Assembly (NCBI GenBank): GCA_051599415.1
Contig: AP039706.1
Span: 124,001-188,000, forward strand
DNA length: 64,000 nucleotides
From: Savitreella phatthalungensis
Taxonomy: Eukaryota
Direction of reading: 5' to 3'
The notes below the pieces were generated by a model, which saw only the letters and a list, made by a program, of their open reading frames with translations, did no database searches and had not been told where the DNA came from. The position numbers and the translations under genes were made by a program. Positions 36,826 through 59,640 of this stretch are shown piece after piece; position 1 is the stretch's first letter, and each line of letters starts with the position of its first letter.

Positions 36826-36922
36826 CTACCGATGCGGTGGAGACTTGAGTATGCGTGAGCCGCTAGAGATGCGTTTCTGTAGTCGATGTGCGCCGTTGGC
36901 GAGTATGCTCGATGTCGTTTGG

Positions 36923-36953
<31 letters not shown>

Positions 36954-39900
36954 ATTGGATCGATGAAGGTGGAGCGGTGCTCGAGGCTGATCGATTCAAG
37001 GTCGTTTGGGGCGGCATTGGACCGTTCGGATTCGTAGCTGCATCGAATGATGGCGGTGGCTCGCGCGGGTACGATGTTCCTGTGGCGCTCGCTGGCTGCA
37101 CCTGCTGCTGCTGCTGCTGTTGAGATGCAAGCAGAGCAGCTGCTGAAGTGGTCGTGATGCCCGGGGTGGCTGCGGTGAATGCAGCTGAAAGTGTCGTCGG
37201 ACTGCCTAGCGGAGGGGCTAGTGAGTTCGCTGGGGGCGAGGATGACTGTGGTAGTGGCAGGGTTTGCAGCGGGACATGACCTCGCTGAATCTTGCCTACG
37301 AGCCAGTGCCTGCCTGGTACTGTGATACCTTGAAGATCTGACGAGGGGAGTTCTGCACCGTTGAGGTAAAGGAGTTCGGCAAGTGGGAAGACCTCAGCTT
37401 CCTCTGCTAATGCCAGGGCAAGGACTGGGGTGTTTGTCCGATCGTCGATGACATTGGCGTCTGCGCGGGAAGCTAGGGCACCGTAAGCGGCAGCGATGTT
37501 TCCAGATGTGACGCTCTGTAAGAGGACGTCGTTCGGCGACAGAGACGGATACTCGACGAACGCGCGATCGACGTACTTGGCCGTGATGTAGCGGACGCGG
37601 TGATCGCGTGATGACTTCTCTGACGGCCGGTCTTGCGGCGCGAGGATGTGGGCATTGGCATCGAAGATTTGGTTGGCGACGCGGTTGCCGGTGAGGACGA
37701 GAAGCTCGACGAGGTCGCGATTGAAGGAGTTGGTGTCGAGCAGCAGAGAACGAACTTTAGAGATATGACTGCCGAGGGAGCGGTGGACGCCAGAGCACTC
37801 GATGCACAGGATCGCGCACAGGTTGATGGAGACCCACTCGACTTTGGCTGATGAACCACAGTCTGCACATCGTGAGTTCTCAGGAGCAGCCTCGCGAATC
37901 GTCGATAGGAGTTTACGTGGCTCGTCGCTGCCAACGAATGGTCGACTTGAGGCACTGCCGGTGGACGTGTTGAGCGCTGTGGTCAGCGTAGATGATCTGC
38001 GGCTGAGTTTGCCGCCGAAGAGTGCTTCGGCGTTACCGCCAGATTGCTTAACTTCGCGGTTGTGTTGATGAAGTGAGACTTGGGAAGCACTGCCATCGAG
38101 AATGCCTGCGATGGCTGCTGTGATGTGCTTGATCCAGGACTCGAGTTCTTCCTCGCCGGTTGTCTGGTAGACGCGCTTCGAATTCGGTGTCAGGACCTCG
38201 AAACAGAATCGCCGGTCTGTGTTGCGCGCAGGACGGACGGTAGCCATGCGGAGGTCGATCGGATCGCCGCTGTGGTCGATCGCCTCTTTCCAGTCTCTGT
38301 ACTCTGAGATCTGACCTCCAGCAAGTACTACCCAGAACTTGTGCCAGTTGAGCTTTTGTACGCCCGGGGCCATCTTGGGATCGCCTTGGCGGGCGAGTGC
38401 CCAAAGGATACCTTCTTTCCGACGCGGATCCTGCTCCTGCACGTTGAGCGGCGGTACATCTTGCAAGATGGCTTCATCGAGGACCTGCATGGCGCGCTGG
38501 CTGCCTGATCGCGAGAGTGTCGGGTGAATCGTCTCGCCTGAACTTTCATCCTTCGGCAGATTGCTCTTCTCGATATGCCGTCGCCGCTCTTCTCGCTCGG
38601 ATCGCACGAGCTTGAAATCATTGCCTGCGGATTCCAGGCCTCGTGACAGGGTCTCGAGCGCAGGTCGTAGCTCTCGAACAACATTTGCGACGCCCAGGAT
38701 CTTTTGTGATTGCGTCATTGCATACAGGGTGAGCTGCTTGAGGACTTCGTGTTCCTTTCTGCCGCCATGGAGATCTTGAACGTAGCAGAAGTAGTCGAAT
38801 CGTTTGAGTTCGAAATTTCGCTTCTTCGAGTTGTACTTGGAGTCCTTGTCCATGAGCTTCTTTTCGTCTGCGTCGTTGCGCTTGCTGAGGTAGCGGGAAA
38901 CGAAGCCGTAGAAGTCCTTTGATTCGTCCTCAAACTCGCGCTTCTTGCCTTCGGCAGCCTTGATGTCGACGTCGTAGATTCGGCGGAGCGGAGCGATGAT
39001 GGCTGTGTGGAGGAGAGCGTCGTCGTCGTGTCTGAATTGCTGAAGCTGCGCGGATGCCTGGTCGAAGTACGCATCCCACACAGGTCGGCAGGCAGATGGA
39101 TTGCTCTCTGCGATCAGCCGCATCGTCTCAAAAAGCTTCTCGTACGCTTCCGAGTATGCGACGTAGAGTGTGCGAACGGCGTTCGCCCGCTTCATCAGTT
39201 TCTTGATCCGTAGCCGGAATGCTTCAGTCTTGCTCTCGAGACCAGCCAAGGTCGCCCTGAACACAGGTCCGTCGTCTAGATCGGCGGATGTCTCTGGCGG
39301 CGAGAGGAGGGCTGTGATGCTTGACTGCTGCGCAGAGTCGAAGTACGGCGATGTGTCGACGTTGATGGGCGTCATGATTTCCGGGGAGTCTGGGCGTGGG
39401 AGAGGTGGCTCGACTCTGGGAGACTCGATGGAGGAGTATGAAGGGATGTGCAGCCGCGTGGGACGAGCCTGCTGTTGGTAGTGGGGAGAGGAGATGGGGA
39501 TCGGCACCACGTCTTCGACGACGAACAAGGCGAAGCGAGCGAGGACGACGAATCGGTTGTCGCTCTTGGAGAATTCTGCAAAGGCGCAGACGACTCTGCC
39601 ACGAGAAGGTGGCTGGACTTGCCAGACGTGATCTACCTGGGTGTCTTGGCGGTCACCGATCAGGGCTGCGTGTGGGTGTTTGTGGATGTTGGAGTCTGCA
39701 GCGTAGGTCGATGTCAGTAGGCGGTCGACGTCCGCAGCGGTTGCGCCATGAACGAACGTCAGCCCTGAGATCGCACCACGCACCGCCAAGCTAAAATGCA
39801 GACTCGAGCCTGAACGCGCTTGGATGGTGAACGTCTGCGCTTCTGCATCCCCGACGTATTCCACAGGAGCGCCATCGTCGCGTGTTGCACCGTACCTCCC

Positions 39901-40188
39901 GGTCTTCTCTCGCCGTGTGATGGTGACTGCTTTGGAAGGTGCACCTGGCGCATGTATACGGAGAGACGTTAGGAGTAAGCGATCAGGCCTTGCAAGGTAG
40001 ATAAGCGCGTCTGTGTGGGGTGCCGCAGCAGGTGGATTAAGCGTGGGCGTGTGGGAAGTGGATGCAGTCGTAGGCGCTGGCGCTGATGCCGAAGCTATAG
40101 AAGCTACCTGTACGGTATTCATGGTCGGCTGCGACGTCCCAGGTGGTGAGCCCGGTGGTGAACCAGGTAGGTGACCTGCAGACGTCAT
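36826..40188 (-). CDS. BAR-PH-ArfGAP protein (Csx2/Cnt/Age1-like)
   Basis: DDGPVFRA BAR start, FELKRFDY, PH domain WHKFWVVL...RRFCFEV, ArfGAP CADC...WVSINL..LCIECSGVHRSLG; poly-Q tail. Confidence 0.9.
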
Positions 40189-40683
40189 ATGGACATTGTC
40201 CCGATGAGCTGGTCCTTGACGGAACTTATGAGGAAACTATCGCTCTGCTGTAGATAGAAATAGGAGCATAAGCTGAATGCGCGATGAAGTCTGTTCGCTC
40301 AAGACCAGCACTCTAGAGGACGAGCTTCTCTCTGATACCCACGTATCGCTGCCTTGATTTGCTTTACGTTGGTTTAATTGCGTCGCGTACGTGCGGACGT
40401 TTGTGTAACGCCGTACATCTCATGAATCACGTGTTTTCTTTGTCTGCTCTATAGATATCTGATTATTTGGGTTGCACGTGAATACGCTCTGCTCGACCTC
40501 GAAGGCGATGAAGCAGAGTATATCACTCATCGACGCGCTATAGACTTTGGACTTGAGACGGCTGAGGCTGAATCATGTTCGAGAAGAGATTCCTGGCTGA
40601 TCTTTTCGCATGTTGACTGACTTGCTTGTCTACGTATCTCACTAACTCTCTCTCTGTGTTCCTCACTCTTCCACTTTCCCTAC

Positions 40684-43600
40684 CTAGTAACCATACATCT
40701 GACCACCGTTGAGGCCACCACCGTAACCTGTAGGTTGTCCAGGCATACCCATCATGCCTGATGCTGGTGCTGCAGTGATCATGAGCGGGTTTCCAATCAT
40801 TGGCGTTGTGTCGTCCTTTTGCTGAAGGTCTTGATCACGCTTTTTGCGGTCTTCGTTGTCCTGGAAGAGCTGCTGCAGCTTCTGCTGTTGCTCGTGCTGG
40901 TGGTTGATGAGGTATGGCATGGTGAAGTCCTGAAGGCCGTATCGCCACGACAGCTCCATGACGAGGTCGAGTGAAACGAGGTGGTAGCAGGTGAAGAGGA
41001 GGGCTGCAAACACTTCCTTGTTGCCGACCTCGACAAAGTAGCGAGCGAGTTCCTCGACAACCTCAGGCTTGCTAGATGCCGCTGAAATCTCCACAGCGTC
41101 CTTCCACAGTCGATCGCCCTTCGACAGGTCGATTGCGTGCTGCCACCGCTTCATCTTGCGGTACAGGTGTGCGGCGATCCGCCGGAACTCTAATAGCTCG
41201 TGCTTCTCCAGCTTCTGTGCAAGAGCGAGTGTCTCGAACCGGTCATACGAGTCGACAGAGTGACGAAGAGACTTGTAGTCTTCCTCCTCGATCAGCAACT
41301 CGTTGTAGGCAGTGTTGACTGCCTCGATGTTCTTCTCCTGGACAGCGGCCAGGTATGATCTGATGAGCGGCACATTGTCAGACTTCTCGAACATACGGAC
41401 GACGCGTGTGTGATCGATGCGCGGGGTGAGAGCTTGGAGAAGGTCGGTGAGGAGCATTGGCTGTTCCTGCAGATAGAAGTTCAGAGCCTTGTAATAGATC
41501 TCGAGGTTGGCAACCTTCACGATGATCTCCTTGAACTTGGCGTGCTCCCAAGCGTCCGCCGAACGCTCCATGATGGTCAGGGCGGCGTTGTCAAACTCGT
41601 CGTAGTGCTCGTATAGGAAGACGAGTTCTGGCCAGAGGTGCGCCTGCTCGCATGCACGGATCGTCTTTGGCATCTGGATGCGTCCCCAGAAGAGCTTGAT
41701 GTGAGACATCACAGCCTCTGTGCGGTACTTGGTGTAGAGGATTGCGAGCTCTGTGAACATGCCCATGTGAGCACGCTCGAGAGAGAGACCTGCCTCCATG
41801 AGCGTCATCAACTCCTCGAAGAAGCCGTTGTACTCGTACTGGCGCACGAGCGCAGATAGCTCCTCTGCATGAACGATCAGGTTCAGTCCACAGATCTGCG
41901 CCAGACGGAACTCGCGCTGGTCGATGCAGACCTGGTTCACTTCCTTCCAGACCTTGATCGAGTTGGCCTTGCGTGCACAGTCGACGGCGTTTTGGTATTC
42001 GCCCAGGTGGACGAGTGTGGACGCGAGACGAGCCCAATTGGAGACGCCTGTGAAGAGCACCTTGGCTGCCTGGTACTGCTGCGCATCATAGCAGTCGTCT
42101 CCTGCCTTGTTGACGTCTGCCACGTTTGTTCCCTGGAGGAAGTCCTCGAGGTCGTGTAGTCGGTCAGTCTTGGCAAAAGCGAGGAGAAGAGCGGTGTCAA
42201 CGACAGGCTCGCGCACGGTCTTGCGTGCCATCTGCAGGTAGCGGATCAGATCCTCAGACTTGCCAGCTCTGTCGGCAATTTCGACGACCTCTGCATAGTT
42301 GCTCGGATCCTTCGCCTTGAGGTAAGAGTCGATCGAGTCAGTGACGCGGAGACCGTCGAGCTGGGCCTTGGCCAGACGCGACCACACCTCTGGTGTGTCG
42401 ACCTTGTCGGCGTATTCCTGTGCACGGTCGATCGAGACTACATGTTCGACGAGGACGTTGACGGCGTCGGCGTGGGAACCCTGCTTCTGGTAGATGTCGA
42501 ATGCTTCCTCGTGCAGACCGGACTGTAGGGCGATCTGAGCGATGTCGGGCGCATCGTAGTTGTCCAGCTTGGTGACGTAGCCACGGACACGTGCCTTGTC
42601 TGACTTAATGGCAGTGAGGATGAGCAGGTTTTGGAGGTTCTGATTGTCACTGAAGGCGGAGGGCTCTAGGATGATCTTTTCGAGCAGGTCGATGAGCTCG
42701 ATCGGCAAGTCGGCCTGCATGAAGGCCTTGACGGCGACCGAGACATCCTCCGGAGAAGAGGACTCGGGCACGGCTGTGGCGATGACCTGGTCAACGAGCT
42801 GTCGGCGGAACGAATTGTCGGAGGAGAGAACTGCCTCCCAGAGTCCAGGTTCGCGACGGCTGAGCACATACCTTGCCTGCTGCTTAAACATCTGGTTCTC
42901 GTTCGTGATGCGGACGAGTTCGAGGTCATTCTGTCCCTTGGAGTAGGCGATGAAAGCGAGAGATGGATCACGCTTCTCGCAGTACTTTCCGACGACGAGG
43001 GTGTCGTAATCCTGCTCCTTCAGGAATCGTTCAGGGTTGTTGTTGGAGTCGATGTAGATCTTTGCGAGGGCATTTGTCACCTCACGGTCAGGCTGCGAGG
43101 CCTCAAGGAAAGGCAGCAGCATCTTGAGACGGTTGCGACGCTCGACCTCGGCGACGAGATCGGCCACAGGCACCTGATTGACAACCGACATGAGCAGACC
43201 CTTGATGATGTTCTCGTCGCAATCGACGTCGAGCAGACCTCCGACAACAGCCGGAGCACGCTGCGGGTTAACGCGCTGGACATAGACCTCGATGAACTTG
43301 AAGAGCTGGTTCTGGTAGAGATAGAGAACGAGGTCGTGGACAAAGTCGAAACGGTCGCAAACGATGATGAGTGGAAGCTGGTCTGGCAATCTGGCCTCTT
43401 TGAGGAAGTTCTTGACCTTGTCCGGGTTGTACGCGTTGGACTCACGGCACACGCGCTCGACTTCCTTGAGCTGACCAATGGATGCGGCTGCCTGGATGTA
43501 CTTGAACACGACTTCCTGCTCCTCGGTGAGGTTGACGATGGAGCCAAGGTAGTAGTAGAGACCTTCAGGAGTCTTATACTTCTCGAAGAGCTGGATGAGC

Positions 43601-45693
43601 TGGTGGGAGCCGATGAGGTCACTGTACTTAGTGGCGATCTGAACGACGACCTGAAGATTCTGACGGATGTTCTGCTTGAGCATCTCGTTCAGGCAGTCAA
43701 GCGATTGCTCAACCGACAAGGTGCCGAAGAAGCCAACCAGCCACTCCGTGTTGAGGACCTGTGTGTGGACGACGACGCGCTTGATGTCCGCAGGAGTATC
43801 GTAGAGCTCGAGTGCGCGCTGATAGAGGCCTGCCTTCTCGCAGAGCGAGGCGATGGACGGCTTGTCGAAGTGAGAGAACATCTCGTTACCGAGAATAGCG
43901 TCAGCGACTTGAGGTGCGTTGAGGAGGTTCATCTCGAGCAAACGGGTTTGCAGGCGGCCTTGGTCTGGGCGGTTGTCCTTGAGTGCGTCGAGGAGGAAGG
44001 CTGTGGCTTGCTGAATCATGTTCTGTGAGAGGAAGACATCGACGACGCGCTCGACATCGACGAGAGAGCCGCCCTCGGTATTGGCAAGCTGAGTAGCGAA
44101 TTCTGCGCCGCGCTCGGGATTCACACGGACGATGTGCTGCAACAGGGCTGCGTAGTCTGGCGAGTAGCCTGTCTGCGCAGCGTAGGGCACGATCTGGTCG
44201 AATTGACCGAGCTCTGCGAAGCATGCAACGACCTTGGGTGGGACATTTGCCTTCTGGTAGATCTGCAGGGCGAGTGCCAGGTTGGAGGAGCGAACAAGGT
44301 CTCCGAGCTGCTCGGAGCAGCCAAGCTTGTCCTCGCCTAGCCACTTCTCGAGCAGCTGCACGCGTCCCTGCTGAATGACGGGACGCGAGAGTTCGAGGGT
44401 CTCGTGCTCGTTGAGAGCACCGCGGTCAAGCAAGGAGCCAAAGTACTGCAGGATTGGGGACAGTCCACCAGTAGCAGGAGCGTTCTTGAAGCGCTGGATG
44501 GTGTCTGGAGTACGAAGGATGCCGCGAGGTGAGCTTGCAGCGACCTTGGCAGCTTCTGCGAGGTTGCCAGAGTTGAAAAGTTGCTGGAAGCGCTGAACGT
44601 AAATATCGTCTGCACCTGGCAGATCTCCACGACCTGCAAGCTTGACTGCGAGCGTTGCGTCACTCAGCGTGTTCATGATGTAAGGTATCACGTTCTGCTC
44701 GTCGACGCTGACGGAAAGTACCTGACCTTTGCGGTTGATTGCGAGGATACCAGCGGTGGCGTCGTGGTCAGCGGTGACAAAGACGGTCTCACCGGAGATA
44801 CGGTTCATGTAGATGCAGACGCCGCTCTCCAGATCGTACAGGTGGATAAACCCATACTTTGTGACGAGATAGATGATGCCGTAACGCTTTGAGACCTGCA
44901 TTGAGACTGGGAAGTCATTAACTGCCTCGGGGGGAAAGAACACATCGACTTGCTTCTTCTGGAAGACTGGGTTTTGTGCATTGTGGTCGATTTCAACCAC
45001 GTGAAGCTTTGCACCCTGGGGCTGGCGGACTGCGAAAGTGAAGAGCTGCGTGTCTGCCGGGTGATCTTCGAGACGGATCTGAGCGAATGCGGCAGCGTGA
45101 CCTTCAATCGGTTGAGACTGTCCACGCTCGACAGAGTAGAGCTGCATGGCTCCCGCGACTCGACCTTCAACGGACTTGATGCCGACGACGATGCACCACT
45201 TCTCCTGCGCATTGACCTTGTAGCCAATGATCTGTGCGTCTGCAAGATTCTGGCTGCGGTCAAAGATCTTTCGAGGTGCTTCTTCACCGGAAAGTGCCCA
45301 GTGGTAGACACTTGTTGGTGTGACCATGCCGATCTTGGAGGGTGAGATCCATGACCAGAACTTGATATCTTCGTTCATCATGTGGGATTTGAGCTTCTGC
45401 TTTGCATCGAGGTTGAACACTTGGAGCTGCCTGCCTGCCTTGAGTGCGATGATGTTCTGGGATGGGTGCATGATGGCGTGCTCTGCCTGGATGTTGCGCC
45501 GCATGACACCGGATCCGAGGTTGTGAAGGTCGATGACGACGAGCTGGTTTGAGTCTGCTTCACGAACGCACACATATCGGTCAGAGGTGAGGGTGAGTGT
45601 GTTGAATCCGATGGCTGATTGAGGGATGTTGTAAGGTGCAGAGGTGAGCTGAAGTACCTCTGAGAATTTGATGGGGAGTGCAGCGGCCGCCAT
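40684..45693 (-). CDS. CHC1: Clathrin heavy chain
   Basis: 1669 aa; [31 protein letters not shown] repeats, [16 protein letters not shown]. Confidence 0.98.
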
Positions 45694-46019
45694 GATGGAA
45701 TGAGACCGTCCGACTGACTTGGCTGATGTGGATTGTGAGAGGAGTGTTCACAGGGGTCAATGGATAGAGCTTAAAGGAGGTGAGGGTGAAGAAGTAGGTG
45801 AGGTATGTTAGGACAGAGAGTCAACTGTACGTCAAAGTCGATCTCTGTGCCACTAGCTCACCCAGGGAATCCTGTTTCAATTGGGGGGGCAGGGATGGGG
45901 AACTTCTGAGGTTAGGTCTAGTTTGAGTCAGAGATCACTTCTCCCTCTAGTGTATTTTCAGATGGGTGAGGTTGTTGACAGAGATGTAGTATATTGGGTG
46001 ATGTTGGAGAGGGTAGAGT

Positions 46020-48017: not shown

Positions 48018-49001
48018 TCACTCTGTGATGGTATTCTCAGTCTGTCCTGAGGTGGAGTGTGAGAGATCTGGCATGAGTGTCGGTGTAGATGAGGTTCGCT
48101 GATGGAGGGGCACCAGGTCGTCGGTGTCGGCTGTTGTGCGAACGACTTCGAAATGGTGTCTCCAGGCGTCTAGCATCCAGGCGAATGCTGCGTGCAACTG
48201 GACAAACACATCCTCCATTCCCGTCAACTCTGCCAATCCTTTCTCCTGCGCCCGCCCTTTCGGTCTCAGGAATGAGCGGTCTGAGAGCTCGTCGCTCGTC
48301 CGCACGCCATTCTTCCCGCTGCCAGCAGGCGCATGCAGCCGTTCGGCAAGCTCGCTGTTGGCGGAGACAAGTCTCGTCGACAGCGTTTTGAATCGCTCTG
48401 TCACAAACGTCCACGACTGCAGGAGGTTGTGCTCGTCTGTGGTGGTGCACATGAGTGCGTACTGCCTGCGCGCGGATGACGGGGCTCCGATGGCGGAAGC
48501 GGTGGATGATGTCGCTGAAGCACCCTTCGCGTGCTGCGGATCTGTCAGGCGGAAGATGTATGCAATCGTGTACCCAATTGTCGGGTCGCCGAAGAAGACT
48601 GGACCTGATCTGCCTGGCACGGCTTCCGAAGACAGCGCGCGGATGCATGCTGATCTGAGCGCTTTGTAGCGGTCACCGTTGCTGGGGTGCCGTTTGCTCG
48701 AATACACTGTGCCGCCGGAGGTCATGTCATCCGCATTCGCATTGCTGGTCGTCTGCATGTGTGGCGGCACCCCAGGCGTACGCAAATGTGCCGGCAGCGA
48801 CATCAGACAAGATGCGCACCCGCCTTTACTCGATGAGGACGGCGCAGAACCCGGAGAGGAAGAAGTGCCGCCAGAGGATGTGGCTGTGACAGGACTGCCG
48901 ACAGGAGGGACTGCACGGGCGGGGAACGCCTGTGTACAGAAGATGTTGACGGGACCATGTAACTCACACCAGACCGCGCAGCTCAAGATTGTATTTGCCA
49001 T
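48018..49001 (-). CDS. LST7: Folliculin/Lst7 (Bhd1) longin-domain protein
   Basis: WCELHGP..IFCTQ, CASC, ACIRALSSE, GPVFFGD...GYTIAYIFRLTD, LAELTG...FVQLHA.F. Confidence 0.9.
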   Translation of the reverse strand: MANTILSCAVWCELHGPVNIFCTQAFPARAVPPVGSPVTATSSGGTSSSPGSAPSSSSKGGCASCLMSLPAHLRTPGVPPHMQTTSNANADDMTSGGTVYSSKRHPSNGDRYKALRSACIRALSSEAVPGRSGPVFFGDPTIGYTIAYIFRLTDPQHAKGASATSSTASAIGAPSSARRQYALMCTTTDEHNLLQSWTFVTERFKTLSTRLVSANSELAERLHAPAGSGKNGVRTSDELSDRSFLRPKGRAQEKGLAELTGMEDVFVQLHAAFAWMLDAWRHHFEVVRTTADTDDLVPLHQRTSSTPTLMPDLSHSTSGQTENTITE

Positions 49002-49347
49002 GTCGTCAAGATGTGAGAAAGTGCGTTAAATGAATAAAGCGTCCGTGGAGCGCGTACTCGTCACTCTATTCAGAGGACAGAGGACAGAGAGAACGTACGC
49101 GCTGCGTCCTTGTCAAGGAAGGCTGTCCTTGACGTTGTTGAGGCAGTCAGGAAGATGTGATAAGCAAGCAAAGTACTGTTACGATCAAAATCCTGTTCCG
49201 GAATTTTGTGGAGCCTGAGGATACGCGACTCCAGTGGACTGGACGCCTGGAGACTAGACCTAGATACGTCTGACATTAACAAGAACGGGAGGAAGAAGAC
49301 GGAACAACGGAACTTACGCAGCAGATGCGACTACAGACAGCTCGTGA

Positions 49348-51120
49348 ATGAGTGAAGTGTCAATGTCGTCGCGGCTGGCGGTGCTGCCTCGTGCAGGTCA
49401 GACGATCGCTAGGAATGTAAAGCAGCTGCTGGTACTCGACTCGTCCTTTAATCCACCTCATCTAGCTCACTTCTCTCTCTTGAAGCGCGCTCTCGAGCAT
49501 GCGCCGCTGGAATCTCCGTCCGCGGTACTGCTGATGTATGCTACGCGGAATGCCGACAAGGGGTCGAAGGGTCAGGAGGACACGGACAATAGGCTTGCCC
49601 TCATCCAGGCGTTCTCGACATCGGTCGCGAGAGATCTGCACGAGCAGACGTACATCTGCCTGACGCAGGAGCCCTTCTTCAAGGATAAATTTGAAGCTCT
49701 GCGCGAATACCTCCCTCAGGCCAGTCAGACTTACATCGTCGGGTACGACACGTTCGTCCGCATACTCGACGGCAAGTATTACCCGGATCGTGACCTCAAG
49801 GCTGCTTTGTCTGGATTCTTTGCCAAGGGACGACTTGTGTGCGCGCTCCGACAGGGAGACAGCTGGGGCGACTATGATGCTCAGCGACAGCACGTCGAGC
49901 GGATACGGTCTGGAAAGGAAGGTGGCATTCCTGCTGGATGGGGAGACGCGATCGAGGTTATGACGCTGGCGAATGATGAAGGAATGGGCGTGTCGTCGAC
50001 GGCCGTGCGCGAGGCTGTGAAGACTGGAGATACAGGGACGTTGGAACGCTTGGTATTGCCTGAAGTCAGAGAGGTCATTGCTACTCGTGGGCTATATACA
50101 CCGCAGTTCCCACCACTCCTGCGATCACACGTTCTGGCGTGCTCGTACTCCGCATGGCATCCGCTATTCCGGCACATCTCCCCGCGCGTCCGCATCATCC
50201 GCAACCTCCCGCGAGCTTTCATTGGCTACCTGGACGAGGACGGGCTTATGCTGCCGCAGGACAAACCTCGACCGCCACCGAGACTACAAGAGATCTCGTC
50301 GGAGAGCTCGTTCGAGGACGAGGGGTTTTCGGAGGTCGATCCTACAGAAGCTTTCGCTGAGCTGCATCAGGAGATCACTTCGCTCATTGGCGAACTCGGT
50401 GGCAGTGTGGTGCCGAAGCTGAACTGGTCGTCGCCAAGAGATGCCGTTTGGATCTCGGCGGACCGCACACTCCGGTGTAGAGACCCCTCAGACATTTACC
50501 TGCTTCTAAAGTCGTCGGATTTCATCAACCACGACCTCGGCGGGCATGCGTTTGAGAATTGCGTAGACGACAGGTCGGCGTTGCGACCTGAGGAGGTGGA
50601 GCTGGTGCTTAAGAAGTGGTTTGACGTTCGGCCTTCGCTTGAATTCCGCTGCTTCGTCTTGGACAAGCGCCTGAAGGCCATCTCGCAACGTGATCCGAAT
50701 CCCTATGATTTTTTAGGAGCCCGTCGCGGGGAGATCGTTGGCCTCGCAAAACGCTTATTCGAGGATGAACTCGTGCCGAAGCTATCTCTGGACAATTTCG
50801 CCTTCGACATCTATGTCTCCCCGGCATTCGACAAGGTATGGCTCATGGATATCTCCCCGTGCGCCCGATCGACGGACGGACTGCTGTTCAGCTGGCCGGA
50901 ACTATTGACTCTGCAAGGAGACGATGTCGAGCTGAGACTGGTCGATGAGCACGCAGTCATGGCCTCGCATCCACAGTTCTCAGCTCATCAGGTGCCTTAT
51001 GATCTTGTCGACGGTAGTGACGGTCGCACGGTTGCCGAATTCGCTGAGGAATTCCAGAGACGTCTGGCGTCTGCCGCCATCGACGATGCCCACGACGACG
51101 AGAGTCGCGGCCAATCATAG
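49348..51120 (+). CDS. CDC123: Fusion protein: Pof1-like nucleotidyltransferase (NMNAT/cytidylyltransferase fold, ~aa 1-250) + Cdc123/D123 ATP-grasp eIF2 assembly factor (~aa 254-590)
   Basis: N-half: LLVLDSSFNPPHLAH, NADK, VGYDTFVRILDGKYY, VSST.VR, GLY. C-half: FPP...HVLACSYSAW, PKLNWSSPRDA, LLLKSS, EFRCFV, ISQRD, DGLLFSW. One uninterrupted ORF. Confidence 0.88.
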   Translation: MSEVSMSSRLAVLPRAGQTIARNVKQLLVLDSSFNPPHLAHFSLLKRALEHAPLESPSAVLLMYATRNADKGSKGQEDTDNRLALIQAFSTSVARDLHEQTYICLTQEPFFKDKFEALREYLPQASQTYIVGYDTFVRILDGKYYPDRDLKAALSGFFAKGRLVCALRQGDSWGDYDAQRQHVERIRSGKEGGIPAGWGDAIEVMTLANDEGMGVSSTAVREAVKTGDTGTLERLVLPEVREVIATRGLYTPQFPPLLRSHVLACSYSAWHPLFRHISPRVRIIRNLPRAFIGYLDEDGLMLPQDKPRPPPRLQEISSESSFEDEGFSEVDPTEAFAELHQEITSLIGELGGSVVPKLNWSSPRDAVWISADRTLRCRDPSDIYLLLKSSDFINHDLGGHAFENCVDDRSALRPEEVELVLKKWFDVRPSLEFRCFVLDKRLKAISQRDPNPYDFLGARRGEIVGLAKRLFEDELVPKLSLDNFAFDIYVSPAFDKVWLMDISPCARSTDGLLFSWPELLTLQGDDVELRLVDEHAVMASHPQFSAHQVPYDLVDGSDGRTVAEFAEEFQRRLASAAIDDAHDDESRGQS

Positions 51121-51220
51121 GAGGATGCGCACATCGCGAAGCTGCCGCGCGCTTCATGATCATGAATGATATTGGATGCATATGAACTGGATAGACTTGA
51201 AGTTGTGGGAGTGACGGTAC

Positions 51221-52213
51221 TTATGGTCTGATCTGCCCAAAGGCCGTAGGGACGCGGATCGGTAGTTGTCCCGTAGGTGTGTGCGATCGTGGCCTTAGCA
51301 GCGATTCACGTGGCTTGTCTCCTGCACTCTTGGGTCGCAGAGCATCGATCTGAGCGTCGAACGGCAGGAGGCTCGAGGCAGGGTTTTGCCAAAGCGATTC
51401 GTAAAGCAGAGGCAAATAATTCGAGGAACGGATCTTTCGTCCGACTGTGATCCAACCACGTCGAGGTCGGTCACCAAACACTTCAAGCCGGCGTTTGCCC
51501 AAACAAAAGTTCTCAATGACGGTGTAAAGCTCTTCCGGTTTCTGATGGTGTCCTGATTCATTCAGCTCTTCACTAATGATGACGTCTGAGTCCACATTGC
51601 AATGGATGATGTGACCATCAGTTGACCTCCTGACTGTGCCGCGGATTCCCATCAGACAATGTTCTTTGACATCATGTAAGAAAGTGCCAGAGTCTCTCGA
51701 AGCTCGACCGCAGAAATCAGATTTGATCCAGACGACGTCCTCTGCACGGCGGTATCCCCAAGCTCGCATCAACTCTCTAGCTGAATCGAGGTTGACAGGG
51801 GTACTCTCGCGAACCATGATCCACAGGAAGCTGGCTTCCGGCACTGCAGCAGCCAACTGGTCAAGCCGCAGGTCATACAGATCCATCGGATGGGTATCGC
51901 GCGGGATATTGAGCAGCAGAGTGTCAAAGCTGTTGGGTGACATGATGAGCGGCAGCGATGGTGCAGAGCCTGGGCCACGCCACACCCAGTGGAGATGAAT
52001 CGGTTCGTGCGCAAGAGATGCTACTTGAGCTCGCTTGAGTCTGTCAAGAACGAGCAGCTTAGGAAGACCGGGGAAACGCCTGATTGGAGAAGTTTCCGGT
52101 GGTTGAGCTGTGTGTTGAAAGTTGCCGGGACTCATACCGGTGAGAACAGCCCGAGTTGTATAAGAGACATTCCTGCCAAATGGGGGAGCATGAAGTAGAC
52201 TCAAATCATCCAT
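51221..52213 (-). CDS. KAR4: MT-A70 family METTL14/Kar4-like protein (non-catalytic m6A writer subunit)
   Basis: SFLWIMV, WGYRRAEDVVWIKS, KEHCLMGIRGTVRRSTDGHIIHCNVDSDVII, KPEELY.VIENFCLGKRRLE; no DPPW motif. Confidence 0.88.
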   Translation of the reverse strand: MDDLSLLHAPPFGRNVSYTTRAVLTGMSPGNFQHTAQPPETSPIRRFPGLPKLLVLDRLKRAQVASLAHEPIHLHWVWRGPGSAPSLPLIMSPNSFDTLLLNIPRDTHPMDLYDLRLDQLAAAVPEASFLWIMVRESTPVNLDSARELMRAWGYRRAEDVVWIKSDFCGRASRDSGTFLHDVKEHCLMGIRGTVRRSTDGHIIHCNVDSDVIISEELNESGHHQKPEELYTVIENFCLGKRRLEVFGDRPRRGWITVGRKIRSSNYLPLLYESLWQNPASSLLPFDAQIDALRPKSAGDKPRESLLRPRSHTPTGQLPIRVPTAFGQIRP

Positions 52214-57149: not shown

Positions 57150-57495
57150 GAAGAGGTATTAGGTATTCTCTTCTGGTGATATAATTGTCTGACTATTGAT
57201 TTTAGTCTGTTCGTGAGAAGTTGATCAATCGTGCATTCATCCCAAGATACACGTGTCCGTATTCACTCCTGCATCGAACAATCCGAAAGAATATTCATCA
57301 TACATTCAGTCAACTCATTCATTCATTCATTCATTCACTCCTGGAGGAAAAGTTACGCGGACAGAGAAGCGCGTCCTGTGTGTCTGACGGAAGTTAGACA
57401 GCGTCTTACAACATAACAGAGCAGAGAGGGTACATATTTGCTTTCAGAGATCGATACCTCCTCTTCTACTGCAATCATCTCATCTCTGTTTCAAG

Positions 57496-59640
57496 ATGAG
57501 CAGCATCGATGAGCAGATCGATTTCCGTGATCTGGAAGACAAGTACAGAGTCGAGCAGGAAGAAGGTTTCGACTGCATCGTCCTAGTCGATGGAATTCCA
57601 GTCATTCCAGAAAGCAAGAAGGCAGCACTCATTCGTGTTCTCACAAAGACGCTCGACAGGTTCGGTAAGCTAAAAGAGGATGGCATTTTCATGCCCTTTG
57701 GTGAAGATGGCCAGAACAAGGGTTTCGCATTCGTCGAGTATGAGACTCCCGCACAGGCAAATCGCTGCGTTCGTGAGCTCAATGGCTACAAGCTCGACAA
57801 GGCGCACACATTCCAGGTGAATCTGATCGGCGATGTTGAGAAATACGCAGAGATGCCTGACGAGTACCGTCCTCCGCGCGAAGAGCAGGCATTCCAGGAG
57901 CACGAGCACTTGCGCTCCTGGCTCGCAGATTACGCTGGCCGCGACCAGTACGTTGTCCTCCGCGGTGACGAGGTTTCTGTAAACTGGAACAACAAGGAGG
58001 ACGGACCTGAGCCGGAAGTCGCTCGCAACAACTGGACAGAGACATACACACAGTGGTCACCACTCGGCTCCTATCTTGCCAGCTTCCACCAGCAGGGTCT
58101 CCAGCTCTGGGGAGGAGCAAGCTGGAAGCGAATTGCTCGATTTGCTCACCCACGTGTCAAGCTTATTGACTTCTCACCTCAGGAGTCCTTCCTCGTTACG
58201 TGGTCGAACGAACCACTGGAACTGCCACCAGCAGGGCATCCAGCACGACTCACAATGCCCTTCACACAGGAAGATGAAGGCAAGCAGGTGTTTGTGTGGG
58301 ACCTGAAGAAGGGTATCCTCCTCCGCAGCTTCCCGGGACAGACGCTCGAGCCCAACAAGAAGATGGTGTGGCCGATGTTCAAGTGGTCGTCCGACGAGAA
58401 ATACCTCGCACGCATGACGCCTGGTCAGATCTGGGTATACGAGACCCCATCGATGGGTCTGCTGGAGAAGAAGTCCATCAAGATCGAAGGTGTCGTTGAC
58501 TTTGAGTGGTCGCCTGCCCAGCCCCTTCTGTCATACTGGACTCCTGAAGTCGGCAATCAGCCTGCTCGTGTCTCCGTCATGGCCATCCCGTCAAAGGAAA
58601 TCGTCCGCACAAAGAACCTGTATTCCGTTAGCGACTGCAAAATGCACTGGCAGTCTGCGGGCGACTACCTCTGCATCAAGGTCGACCGTCACACAAAGTC
58701 GAAGAAGGGTTCGTTCACCAACCTCGAGATCTTCCGCGTGTGCGAGAAGAACATCCCTGTGGAGGTGATCGAGATCAAGGACACGGTGATCAACTTTGCA
58801 TGGGAGCCAAAGGGTGCTCGCTTTGCCTTGATCCAGACAAACGACCCGAACCTTGGCACACCGCTCGGCGTCACACTTAAGACGACGCTGGCCTTCTACG
58901 CACTCGAAGCCGCCAAGCAGAAGCACGAGTCGAACTTCAAGCTGGTGCGAGCAATAGACCGGAAGACCTGCAACTCGCTCGCATGGTCACCGAAGGGACG
59001 ATTCCTCGTCGCTGCCACCCTCGGTTCCACCTCGACCTTTGACCTCGAATTCTGGGATGTGGATTTCGAGGGCGACAAGAAGGAGGACGAGAAGGAGTTT
59101 GCAGCCAACTTGCAGTGTCTCTCGACTGCAGAGCACTACGGCATCACAGACCTCGAGTGGGATCCCTCTGGTCGATATCTTACGACGTCGTCCTCCTTCT
59201 GGAAGCACAAGATGGAGAACGGATTCACGCTGTGGGACTTCAAGGGCCAGCAGATCGCAGAGCAGCCGCTCGAGAACTTCAAGCAGATCATCTGGCGTCC
59301 TCGTCCACCGTCACTCCTCTCCAAGGCCGACCAGAAGCAGATTCGCAAGAACCTGAGAGACTACTCGCGCACATTCGACGACGAGGACAACCTGAAGCAG
59401 AACGAGGCTGCGAGGGAGCTGCTCGAGGAGCGCAGAAGACTTGTTGACGAGTGGAACGAGTGGCGCGAAGGTGTGCTCCGCCGTCTGGCTGAAGACCGCA
59501 AGTATCTCAACAAGCCACAGCACTGGGCAGAGAGGCTACTCTCAAAGCAGCAGGAGACAGAAAAAGTCGAAGAACTCGTCGAGGAAGTCATCTCAGAGCA
59601 CTCCGAAGTCGTCTCAAAGGCAACAGCCACCGCCGCCTGA
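57496..59640 (+). CDS. PRT1: Translation initiation factor eIF3 subunit b
   Basis: N-terminal RRM (VDGIPV, KGFAFVEY, GYKLDKAH), WTETYTQWSPLGSY, WD-like beta-propeller, WDPSGRY, WRPRPPSLL. Confidence 0.97.
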   Translation: MSSIDEQIDFRDLEDKYRVEQEEGFDCIVLVDGIPVIPESKKAALIRVLTKTLDRFGKLKEDGIFMPFGEDGQNKGFAFVEYETPAQANRCVRELNGYKLDKAHTFQVNLIGDVEKYAEMPDEYRPPREEQAFQEHEHLRSWLADYAGRDQYVVLRGDEVSVNWNNKEDGPEPEVARNNWTETYTQWSPLGSYLASFHQQGLQLWGGASWKRIARFAHPRVKLIDFSPQESFLVTWSNEPLELPPAGHPARLTMPFTQEDEGKQVFVWDLKKGILLRSFPGQTLEPNKKMVWPMFKWSSDEKYLARMTPGQIWVYETPSMGLLEKKSIKIEGVVDFEWSPAQPLLSYWTPEVGNQPARVSVMAIPSKEIVRTKNLYSVSDCKMHWQSAGDYLCIKVDRHTKSKKGSFTNLEIFRVCEKNIPVEVIEIKDTVINFAWEPKGARFALIQTNDPNLGTPLGVTLKTTLAFYALEAAKQKHESNFKLVRAIDRKTCNSLAWSPKGRFLVAATLGSTSTFDLEFWDVDFEGDKKEDEKEFAANLQCLSTAEHYGITDLEWDPSGRYLTTSSSFWKHKMENGFTLWDFKGQQIAEQPLENFKQIIWRPRPPSLLSKADQKQIRKNLRDYSRTFDDEDNLKQNEAARELLEERRRLVDEWNEWREGVLRRLAEDRKYLNKPQHWAERLLSKQQETEKVEELVEEVISEHSEVVSKATATAA

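What the first reader, a model, noticed from the sequence alone, without database searches (positions are those of the whole stretch)
49348..51120. In-frame fusion of a Pof1-like NMN adenylyltransferase to the eIF2-assembly factor Cdc123
Seen: one stop-free 590-aa ORF carries a complete HxxH nucleotidyltransferase domain (LDSSFNPPHLAH...GYDT..RI....YY...VSST...GLY, ending ~50097). A 3-residue linker (TPQ) joins it to a complete Cdc123/D123 domain starting FPP at 50107. There is no Met at the junction, so Cdc123 has no start codon of its own. Known: budding and fission yeast encode Pof1 (NMNAT activity) and Cdc123 (ATP-grasp protein assembling eIF2 alpha/gamma) as separate genes, and I know of no described fusion. 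Inference: the fusion may physically couple NAD+ salvage or nucleotide status to eIF2 biogenesis, a Rosetta-stone hint of a functional link.
Basis: partly seen in the sequence, partly recalled or inferred. Interest (0 to 1): 0.85.

Follow-up and report, generated by a model that had tools for sequence, protein, structure and literature searches.

The report
Conserved Pof1-like NMNAT–Cdc123 fusion gene
One uninterrupted fungal gene joins a whole NAD-synthesis enzyme (Pof1-like NMN adenylyltransferase) end to start with the whole eIF2-assembly factor Cdc123, and the same fusion is kept in Taphrina deformans and several unnamed relatives, so it is real, though no functional link between the two halves is shown.

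Summary
Window 49348..51120 (+) is one stop-free 590-aa ORF. Residues 31-222 match Pfam CTP_transf_like and residues 270-555 match D123, both above the curated cut-offs.

- **N half:** it folds confidently as a NadD/NMNAT-type enzyme. It keeps H38xxH41 and S216xxxxR221.
- **C half:** it aligns end to end with solved S. pombe Cdc123.
- **Junction:** a whole protein is joined to a whole protein.

The fusion is not an assembly accident. Eight protein clusters at 90% identity carry both halves in one frame. They are the window, Taphrina deformans CCG80865.1 (annotated only as "Cdc123") and six unnamed ones. In separate trees, the N halves and the C halves each form one group with support 100. Outside this clade I found no fusion and no adjacency: 258 Cdc123-only proteins and 0 of 80 metagenome Cdc123 loci.

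My reading is a single-origin, lineage-restricted bifunctional fusion with both halves intact. Functional coupling of NAD+ salvage to eIF2 assembly stays speculation. No RNA runs were listed, no whole genome is held, and the docking test gave no verdict. Seven literature searches found no paper describing the fusion. Interest is moderate.

The parts
49348..51120 (+). Whole fusion ORF, 590 aa plus stop codon (51118-51120)
   Evidence: A TGA lies directly upstream of the ATG.
49348..50097 (+). Pof1-like NMN/NaMN adenylyltransferase-type domain (aa 1-250)
   Evidence: Pfam PF01467, aa 31-222, E 1.4e-7. NCBIfam TIGR00482 E 1e-11, below its cut-off. AF2 pLDDT 93.3, pTM 0.90. All listed Foldseek PDB top hits are NadD/NMNAT, best 8aih E 1.9e-10.
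49459..49470 (+). T/HxxH nucleotidyltransferase motif, H38-L-A-H41
   Evidence: The same motif is seen in P0003. The motif is defined for Pof1 in PMC13191266, section 9.
49993..50010 (+). SxxxxR motif, S216-S-T-A-V-R221
   Evidence: S217 and R221 are invariant in 43 of 43 rows of alignment A3. S216, S217 and R221 are invariant in all 10 fused rows of A5.
50098..50106 (+). Three-residue linker T251-P252-Q253
   Evidence: In the relatives this stretch is about 0 to 21 residues long.
50107..51117 (+). Complete Cdc123/D123 ATP-grasp protein (aa 254-590)
   Evidence: Pfam PF07065, aa 270-555, E 1.9e-94, profile positions 1-298 of 300. phmmer to S. pombe Cdc123 4zgn: E 1.1e-64, aa 257-570 against chain residues 24-330 of 338. 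Human 8phd: E 1e-55.
50416..50418 (+). K357, the conserved ATP-grasp lysine (PKLNW)
   Evidence: Invariant in A4 and A5. Corresponds to human K104 as named in PMC4431377, section 5.
50806..50808 (+). D487 (FDIY), the ATP-grasp acidic residue
   Evidence: Invariant in A4 as D234 of the C half. Corresponds to human D233 per PMC4431377.
50848..50856 (+). D501-I-S503, where the usual DxN motif reads DxS
   Evidence: Of the 146 D123 proteins held that match the motif pattern, 8 have S and 135 have N. P0003 has the same S. Human D246xN248 per PMC4431377.

Best explanation
This is a genuine gene fusion that arose once and is restricted to one lineage. It encodes a single 590-aa polypeptide. A complete Pof1-like NMN/NaMN adenylyltransferase-type enzyme (aa 1-250) is tethered by a very short linker to a complete Cdc123, the ATP-grasp factor that assembles eIF2 alpha onto eIF2 gamma (aa 254-590).

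The join runs from the last residues of one protein to the first residues of the other. The likely origin is therefore loss of the upstream stop codon and of the spacer between two co-oriented genes in an ancestor of the Taphrina-related fungi (inferred).

Both halves have kept their family-defining residues, and the two halves are conserved to a similar degree among the fused proteins. Most likely each half still does its ancestral job: NAD+ synthesis or NMN handling, and eIF2 assembly. In that case the fusion mainly forces co-expression at a 1:1 ratio (inferred). Shown here: the ORF, the two domains, the motifs, and the conservation and single grouping of the fused forms. Inferred: translation as one chain, retained enzymatic and chaperone activities, and the mode of origin.
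For: - **ORF and domains:**
- **N half:** the AF2 model has pLDDT 93.3 and pTM 0.90. All listed Foldseek PDB hits are NaMN/NMN adenylyltransferases. H38xxH41 and S216xxxxR221 are present. Nine residues (G132, D134, T135, R138, Y144, Y145, R168, S217, R221) are invariant across all 43 rows of A3, 7 fused and 36 stand-alone.
- **C half:** it aligns to solved S. pombe Cdc123 over aa 257-570 with E 1.1e-64. K357, D487 and D501 are conserved.
- **Fusion conserved:** of 347 proteins held, 17 match both halves at E<=1e-5. They fall into 8 clusters at 90% identity (the window, P0003, P0004 = T. deformans, P0005-P0008, P0194). A further 258 match only Cdc123 and 72 only the N half.
- **Frame open in relatives:** all fused relatives read through the junction in one frame.
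- **Similar conservation:** identity to the window is 40-59% in the N half and 49-66% in the C half.
- **Single grouping:** the 8 N halves form one group (SH-aLRT 100) among 27 stand-alone homologues. The 8 C halves form one group (100) among 30 stand-alone Cdc123.
- **End-to-start join:** 36 of 36 stand-alone Pof1-like rows end 0-11 residues after the Y250 column. The 47 stand-alone Cdc123 rows start 0-49 residues before the F254 column.
- **No free start for Cdc123:** the first Met after the junction is M301.
- **Not seen elsewhere:** in the exhaustive representative search, only self, P0006 and P0194 among the best 150 reach into the N half. None of 80 metagenome Cdc123 loci has an N-half match at E<=1e-3 in the gene or the held flanks. 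Of these loci, 54 hold at least 1 kb upstream and 37 at least 3.5 kb.
Against: - There is no transcript or peptide evidence. No RNA run could be listed, so translation as one chain is inferred from frame conservation only.
- No whole genome is held for the window. Free-standing second copies of either gene cannot be excluded. Only the 64-kb window was checked, and it has none.
- A CAG lies directly before the F254 codon. It could in principle serve as a splice acceptor for a separate Cdc123 transcript.
- One relative (P0007) has an in-frame Met three residues before its Cdc123 start.
- The Mg-site Asn of the DxN motif is Ser in the window and in P0003, so full ATP-grasp competence is assumed, not shown.
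- HxxH could be seen in only 2 of the 8 fused clusters. The other ORF calls are cut short at the N-terminus, probably at introns.
- Taxon names are known for only one relative. The trees are quick searches without bootstraps, rooted at the midpoint, and the clade needs a root outside it.
- The N half does not reach the curated cut-off of the bacterial NadD equivalog model: 45.2 against 112.45 bits.
Confidence: 0.8

Rival explanations
1. Functional coupling. The NMNAT-type domain acts in cis on Cdc123. It could sense or consume ATP/NMN next to the ATP-dependent assembly step. Or it could act as a chaperone-type or ATPase module that helps load eIF2 gamma and alpha. Either way eIF2 biogenesis would be tied to NAD+/nucleotide status.
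For: - The fusion has been kept in 8 clusters with both halves intact.
- The linker is very short in the window (3 aa) and about 0 in P0194, which forces the domains close together.
- Literature: Pof1 was reported as an ATPase tied to protein quality control (PMC3282682, abstract read). [quoted passage not shown] Cdc123 is an ATP-binding ATPase whose ATP pocket matters for eIF2 assembly (PMC12860950, passages). An NMNAT chaperone structure (5z9r) is among the fold matches.
Against: - No result here shows any contact or joint function.
- Linker length and sequence vary widely, from 0 to 21 aa, as expected for a passive tether.
- The fusion is confined to one small clade. 258 Cdc123 proteins and 80 loci elsewhere show neither fusion nor adjacency, so there is no wider genomic association.
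- The Pof1 paper has no occurrence of eIF2 or Cdc123. No paper links the two proteins.
Confidence: 0.12
2. The two halves are made as separate proteins despite the shared frame. This could happen through an internal promoter with splicing onto the CAG acceptor at 50104-50106, through internal initiation, or through cleavage in the linker. Alternatively, the junction could be an assembly error.
For: A CAG lies immediately before F254. P0007 has a Met just before its Cdc123 part. No RNA data are available.
Against: - Independent assemblies of 7 other clusters keep the frame open across the junction, which rules out a local assembly error.
- 7 of the 8 clusters have no Met at the junction.
- The window's first downstream Met (M301) would remove 47 residues of the conserved Cdc123 N-terminal region.
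- Base composition is continuous across the junction.
Confidence: 0.05
3. The N half is a decayed pseudo-enzyme retained only as an N-terminal extension of the essential Cdc123.
For: The Pfam score is modest at 32.2 bits. The N half is below the NadD equivalog cut-off. The stem branch of the fused N halves is long at 1.15.
Against: - Both ATP motifs are intact, and all nine residues invariant in the family are kept in the fused rows.
- The AF2 model is very confident.
- Stand-alone family members also mostly lack a Pfam call.
- Stems of other fungal groups in the same tree are similarly long, 0.93-1.01.
Confidence: 0.03

Closest known systems
Cdc123 / D123 (Pfam PF07065; solved S. pombe 4zgn/4zgo/4zgp, human 8phd)
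   Same: The C half matches over the full length. It has the same ATP-grasp core residues (K357, D487, D501) and the same C-terminal region.
   Different: It has no initiator Met of its own and carries a 253-residue enzyme on its N-terminus. The DxN motif reads DxS. The 258 other Cdc123 proteins held show no match to this N half.
Fungal Pof1-like NMN adenylyltransferases (S. cerevisiae Pof1/YCL047C; stand-alone proteins of 220-330 aa in Neolecta, Lipomyces, Candida, Pezizomycetes and others)
   Same: It has the same size and the same T/HxxH and SxxxxR motifs. Their spacing is about 180 residues, against H43 and R227 in Pof1 (PMC13191266). It shares a NadD/NMNAT fold. BLAST identity to the stand-alone fungal homologues is at most 42%.
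   Different: It lacks a stop codon and continues into Cdc123. No enzymatic assay exists for it. No call compared it directly with the S. cerevisiae protein.
Taphrina deformans CCG80865.1 / UniProt R4XBZ7, annotated 'Cell division cycle protein 123' (525 aa)
   Same: It is the same fusion, 54-56% identical and covering 88% of the window's protein.
   Different: The gene model starts inside the NMNAT domain, so Pfam does not call that domain. Its linker is 9 residues long, and it keeps DxN.
Bacterial NadD (NCBIfam TIGR00482) and NMNAT structures (8aih, 3e27, 1kaq, 1nup, 5z9r)
   Same: The fold and the ATP-binding motifs.
   Different: Sequence identity is only 12-20%. The score is below the equivalog cut-off (45.2 against 112.45 bits). 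The N half is about 60 residues longer than NadD: TM-score is 0.55-0.63 normalised to the query and 0.68-0.81 normalised to the target.

Membership tests
Cdc123 / D123 (PF07065) | Profile match above Pfam's gathering score over the whole model | tested here: met
   316.7 bits against a cut-off of 24, profile positions 1-298 of 300
Cdc123 / D123 (PF07065) | Full-length likeness to Cdc123 of solved structure | tested here: met
   4zgn E 1.1e-64, aa 257-570 against chain residues 24-330 of 338. Human 8phd E 1e-55
Cdc123 / D123 (PF07065) | R2K ATP-grasp residues: strand-2 Lys, strand-4 Asp and the DxN motif (human K104, D233, D246xN248; PMC4431377 section 5) | tested here: inconclusive
   K357, D487 and D501 are present. 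The Asn is Ser503, as in P0003 and in 8 of the 146 D123 proteins held that match the pattern. The paper notes that this N is occasionally replaced by other polar residues.
Cdc123 / D123 (PF07065) | Binds eIF2 gamma domain III and promotes alpha-gamma assembly | not testable with these tools
   Needs pull-down or complementation experiments
Pof1-like NMNAT (nucleotidyltransferase superfamily, PF01467) | Profile match above Pfam's gathering score | tested here: met
   32.2 bits against a cut-off of 21, aa 31-222
Pof1-like NMNAT (nucleotidyltransferase superfamily, PF01467) | T/HxxH and SxxxxR ATP-binding motifs (PMC13191266 section 9) | tested here: met
   H38-L-A-H41 and S216...R221. S217 and R221 are invariant in A3.
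Pof1-like NMNAT (nucleotidyltransferase superfamily, PF01467) | Rossmann-type NadD/NMNAT fold | tested here: met
   AF2 pLDDT 93.3. All listed Foldseek hits are NaMN/NMN adenylyltransferases, E down to 1.9e-10.
Pof1-like NMNAT (nucleotidyltransferase superfamily, PF01467) | Orthology to S. cerevisiae Pof1 rather than to Nma1/Nma2 | not tested
   No S. cerevisiae sequence was returned by any search. Support is indirect: size, motif spacing, and nearest homologues that are stand-alone fungal proteins of 220-330 aa, some named nicotinamide-nucleotide adenylyltransferase by their sources.
Pof1-like NMNAT (nucleotidyltransferase superfamily, PF01467) | NMN adenylyltransferase activity | not testable with these tools
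   Needs an enzyme assay
Bacterial NadD equivalog (TIGR00482) | Score at or above the curated cut-off | tested here: not met
   45.2 bits against 112.45. It is related in fold and motifs but is not a member of this equivalog.

The most novel reading that the evidence does not exclude
The fusion is selected rather than neutral. In these fungi the Pof1-type domain would be a working part of the eIF2-assembly machine. It could be an ATP/NMN-binding or chaperone-like module that gates Cdc123's ATP-dependent joining of eIF2 alpha to eIF2 gamma according to NAD+/nucleotide state. That would imply that free Pof1 and Cdc123 also cooperate in other fungi. It would give Pof1's 'non-canonical' role and Cdc123's unexplained ATP-grasp chemistry a common, testable context.
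Probability: 0.12. Interest if true: 0.75.

Novelty: new variant of a known kind. Interest (0 to 1): 0.4.

Why it matters
Cdc123 is essential for making eIF2, yet what its ATP-grasp site actually does is still debated. Pof1 is an NMNAT whose main cellular role is described as non-canonical, with links to ATPase activity and protein turnover. A natural end-to-end fusion kept over a whole fungal lineage offers three things:

- It gives a cheap hypothesis that the two proteins work together. This can be tested by yeast complementation with full-length, split and motif-mutant versions.
- It shows that Cdc123 tolerates a large N-terminal domain with almost no linker.
- It corrects an annotation: the T. 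deformans protein is labelled only as Cdc123.

If the two halves simply work side by side, this is an ordinary lineage-specific fusion of modest interest.

Tried and rejected
- **RNA evidence:** The look-up of sequencing runs (kind rna) on 49300-51200 listed no RNA holder. This is no evidence either way, and read laying was therefore not used.
- **Whole-genome search:** the search for free-standing copies was not possible because no genome is held for this window.
- **Complex prediction, N half against C half:** no verdict, ipSAE 0.00 and 0.01, and the alignments were not used by the tool. It is not evidence for or against contact.
- **AF2 of the whole fusion:** the run used the 10-row alignment A5 and gave a poor model (mean pLDDT 50.1, pTM 0.48, C half below 50). 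It is useless for judging domain packing.
- **Alignment A2:** this alignment of 70 mixed rows put the stand-alone Pof1-like proteins onto the Cdc123 half, so I discarded it and built A3 and A4 instead.
- **The search of earlier findings:** searches by place, sequence and words returned nothing.
- **Long Cdc123 hits with N-terminal extensions:** P0208 and P0276 have no likeness to the N half. P0202, P0317 and P0234 carry other domains: SDR, bromodomain and ABC.
- **ESM Atlas on the N half:** it returned only generic 'cytidylyltransferase-like' fungal clusters.
- **NCBIfam on the C half:** no family matched. That library is built for prokaryotes.
- **Ancestral adjacency of POF1 and CDC123:** I considered this as the source of the fusion. 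No adjacency appeared in 80 metagenome loci, but close outgroups (Saitoella, Neolecta, Schizosaccharomyces, Pneumocystis) could not be examined.
- **Supplements:** no supplementary files of any paper were opened. Additional File 1 of PMC4431377, which may list Cdc123 domain architectures, was not seen.
Full report
**Observation.** Window 49348..51120 (+) is a single 590-aa ORF without stops. A TGA lies directly in front of its ATG. Pfam places CTP_transf_like (PF01467) at residues 31-222 (E 1.4e-7; 32.2 bits, cut-off 21). It places D123 (PF07065) at residues 270-555 (E 1.9e-94; profile positions 1-298 of 300). Y250 ends at 50097, T-P-Q fills 50098-50106 and F254 starts at 50107. The nearest in-frame Met codons are M213 upstream and M301 downstream, so a free Cdc123 has no start codon at the junction. 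GC content runs smoothly across the junction.

**The N half.** NCBIfam's best match is the NadD/NMNAT model TIGR00482 (E 1e-11), but at 45.2 bits it is far below that bacterial equivalog's cut-off of 112.45.
- An AlphaFold2 model built on a 43-row alignment (A3) is confident, with mean pLDDT 93.3 and pTM 0.90.
- All Foldseek PDB matches listed are NaMN/NMN adenylyltransferases. The best is 8aih at E 1.9e-10, and human NMNAT 1nup and the NMNAT chaperone entry 5z9r are also listed.
- The two ATP motifs that define NMNATs, and that were mutated in yeast Pof1 (H43 and R227; PMC13191266 section 9), are present as H38-L-A-H41 and S216...R221. Their spacing is nearly the same as in Pof1.
- In A3, nine residues are invariant in all 43 rows, 7 fused and 36 stand-alone: G132, D134, T135, R138, Y144, Y145, R168, S217 and R221.
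- The closest stand-alone homologues are fungal proteins of 220-330 aa, at most 42% identical. They come from Trichophaea, Tricharina, Lipomyces, Neolecta irregularis, Candida and others, and several are named nicotinamide-nucleotide adenylyltransferase by their sources.
- No call returned S. cerevisiae Pof1 itself, so 'Pof1-like' is an indirect assignment.

**The C half.** phmmer aligns residues 257-570 to residues 24-330 of the 338-residue S. pombe Cdc123 chain 4zgn (E 1.1e-64), and also to human Cdc123 8phd (E 1e-55). Burroughs et al. name K104, D233 and D246xN248 of human CDC123 as the ATP-grasp residues (PMC4431377 section 5). Here they correspond to K357, D487 and D501-I-S503. The Asn is therefore a Ser in the window and in P0003. 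Among the 146 D123 proteins held that match the motif pattern, 135 have N and 8 have S. The paper notes that this N is occasionally replaced by polar residues.

**Conservation of the fusion.** A word-indexed search with the whole protein listed several fused relatives:
- a 585-aa model of the window's own gene;
- P0003 (636 aa, both Pfam domains, 58-63% identical);
- Taphrina deformans CCG80865.1/R4XBZ7, annotated only as 'Cell division cycle protein 123' (525 aa, 88% of the query covered);
- four unnamed ORFs, P0005-P0008, which all run from the NMNAT domain through the junction into Cdc123.

The exhaustive HMMER search of 1.84 billion representatives gave 2939 hits at E<=0.001. Among the best 150, only the self hit, P0006 and P0194 reach into the N half. 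BLASTP shows that P0194 covers query residues 44-552 at 40% identity.

Seventeen match both, and they fall into 8 clusters at 90% identity. Identity of the fused relatives to the window is similar in the two halves: 40-59% in the N half and 49-66% in the C half.

Several unnamed ORFs are cut short at the same alignment places, for example after 'FPDPN' and within the NMNAT domain. I read these as introns met by an ORF caller; that is an inference. As a result, the HxxH motif could be inspected in only 2 of the 8 clusters.

**Single origin and shape of the join.** In quick IQ-TREE trees the eight N halves form one group (SH-aLRT 100) among 27 stand-alone homologues. The eight C halves form one group (100) among 30 stand-alone Cdc123 proteins, with the window and P0003 as sisters (100). 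These trees are midpoint-rooted and have no bootstraps.

Stand-alone Pof1-like rows end 0-11 residues after the Y250 column (36 of 36). Stand-alone Cdc123 rows start 0-49 residues before the F254 column (47 rows). The fusion therefore joins a whole protein to a whole protein. This is what loss of a stop codon and an intergenic spacer between tandem genes would give (inferred). The stretch between 'LY' and 'FP' is 3 residues in the window, 21 in P0003, 9 in T. deformans, 8 in P0005-P0008 and about 0 in P0194.

**Distribution outside the clade.** I found no other NMNAT-Cdc123 fusion.
- 258 held proteins match only Cdc123.
- A search with residues 1-262 among proteins of 324-1033 aa gave 9 hits. 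Only the self hit and P0003 carry both domains, and that word-limited search missed P0004 and P0005.
- A metagenome scan returned 80 Cdc123 loci. None has an N-half match at E<=1e-3 in the gene or its flanks. Only three chance-level hits appeared, at E 2.6-3.1. Of these loci, 54 hold at least 1 kb upstream and 37 at least 3.5 kb.
- Neolecta irregularis has a stand-alone Pof1-like protein, and S. pombe Cdc123 is solved as a stand-alone protein.
- The window itself has no second copy of either half.

**Literature.** Seven searches of the held library found no description of this fusion. The term sets were Cdc123+Pof1; Cdc123+ATP-grasp+domain architecture; POF1+NMNAT+YCL047C; Taphrina+Cdc123; Cdc123+gene fusion+adenylyltransferase; Cdc123+NMNAT; and D123+cytidylyltransferase+fusion. 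Papers that hold both names are unrelated lists.
- In Burroughs et al. 2015 I read passages and section 5. The terms nucleotidyltransferase and Taphrina do not occur. Its additional files were not seen.
- The 2026 Pof1 paper (abstract, passages and section 9 read) does not mention eIF2 or Cdc123.

**Interpretation.** The fusion is real, and both halves have been maintained since a single origin in a Taphrina-related lineage. The most economical mechanism is a bifunctional protein whose halves keep their ancestral jobs, co-expressed at a 1:1 ratio (confidence 0.8 for the real, intact, conserved fusion).

Pof1 has been called an ATPase linked to protein quality control (PMC3282682, abstract). 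NMNATs have chaperone activity tied to SxxxxR. Cdc123 is an ATPase whose ATP pocket matters for eIF2 assembly (PMC12860950, passages). But nothing here shows contact or joint action, and the variable linker fits a passive tether.

Separate expression of the halves is unlikely (about 0.05) but cannot be excluded without RNA. A CAG lies directly before F254, and P0007 has a Met just before its Cdc123 part. A decayed N half is unlikely (about 0.03) because all family-invariant residues are kept.

**Limits.**
- No RNA run was listed and no whole genome is held.
- The docking test gave no verdict, and the full-length fold was poor.
- Only one fused relative carries an organism name.
- The window's organism was not identified beyond its nearest named relative.

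Noticed in passing
window 50848-50856 (aa 501-503): The Mg-site DxN motif of the Cdc123 ATP-grasp reads D-I-S in the window and in its sister P0003. The Taphrina-like fused proteins keep D-x-N. Among the 146 D123 proteins held that match the pattern, 8 have S and 135 have N.
   Followed up: partly
proteins P0021, P0036, P0037, P0054, P0077, P0202: A different recurring architecture appears in Mucorales gene models (Gongronella, Halteromyces, Cunninghamella, Hesseltinella, Lichtheimia hyalospora): a short-chain dehydrogenase (PF00106/PF13561) in front of D123. It could be another conserved fusion or a repeated merge of neighbouring gene models. Single cases of bromodomain-D123 (P0317) and D123-ABC_tran (P0234) were also seen.
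   Followed up: no
window 51221-52213 (-): This 330-aa ORF with an MT-A70 methyltransferase-family domain (E 3.9e-29) is convergent with the fusion gene, only 100 bp beyond its stop. I see no DPPW-type motif in its printed translation, so it may be a non-catalytic family member.
   Followed up: no
window 57388-59640 (+): This 750-aa ORF combines an RRM with an eIF2A-type beta-propeller (PF08662, E 5.8e-38). From recall, that architecture is that of eIF3b. It is a second translation-initiation gene about 6 kb from the Cdc123 fusion, probably by coincidence.
   Followed up: no
window 48018-49001 (-): A folliculin-N-like ORF (PF11704, E 2e-42) is transcribed divergently from the fusion gene. Only about 346 bp separate the two start codons, so they probably share a promoter region.
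   Followed up: no
P0194, P0340, P0341: The most divergent fused lineage lacks the acidic low-complexity insert of Cdc123 (window aa about 305-335) and the 'FPxL' start. Its NMNAT end runs almost directly into the conserved Cdc123 core. In both trees it sits on a long branch among the Taphrina-like rows.
   Followed up: partly
window 36826-45747 (-): Large intron-free ORFs encode an ArfGAP/BAR/PH protein (1136 aa) and clathrin heavy chain (1687 aa). The region is gene-dense with long uninterrupted ORFs.
   Followed up: no
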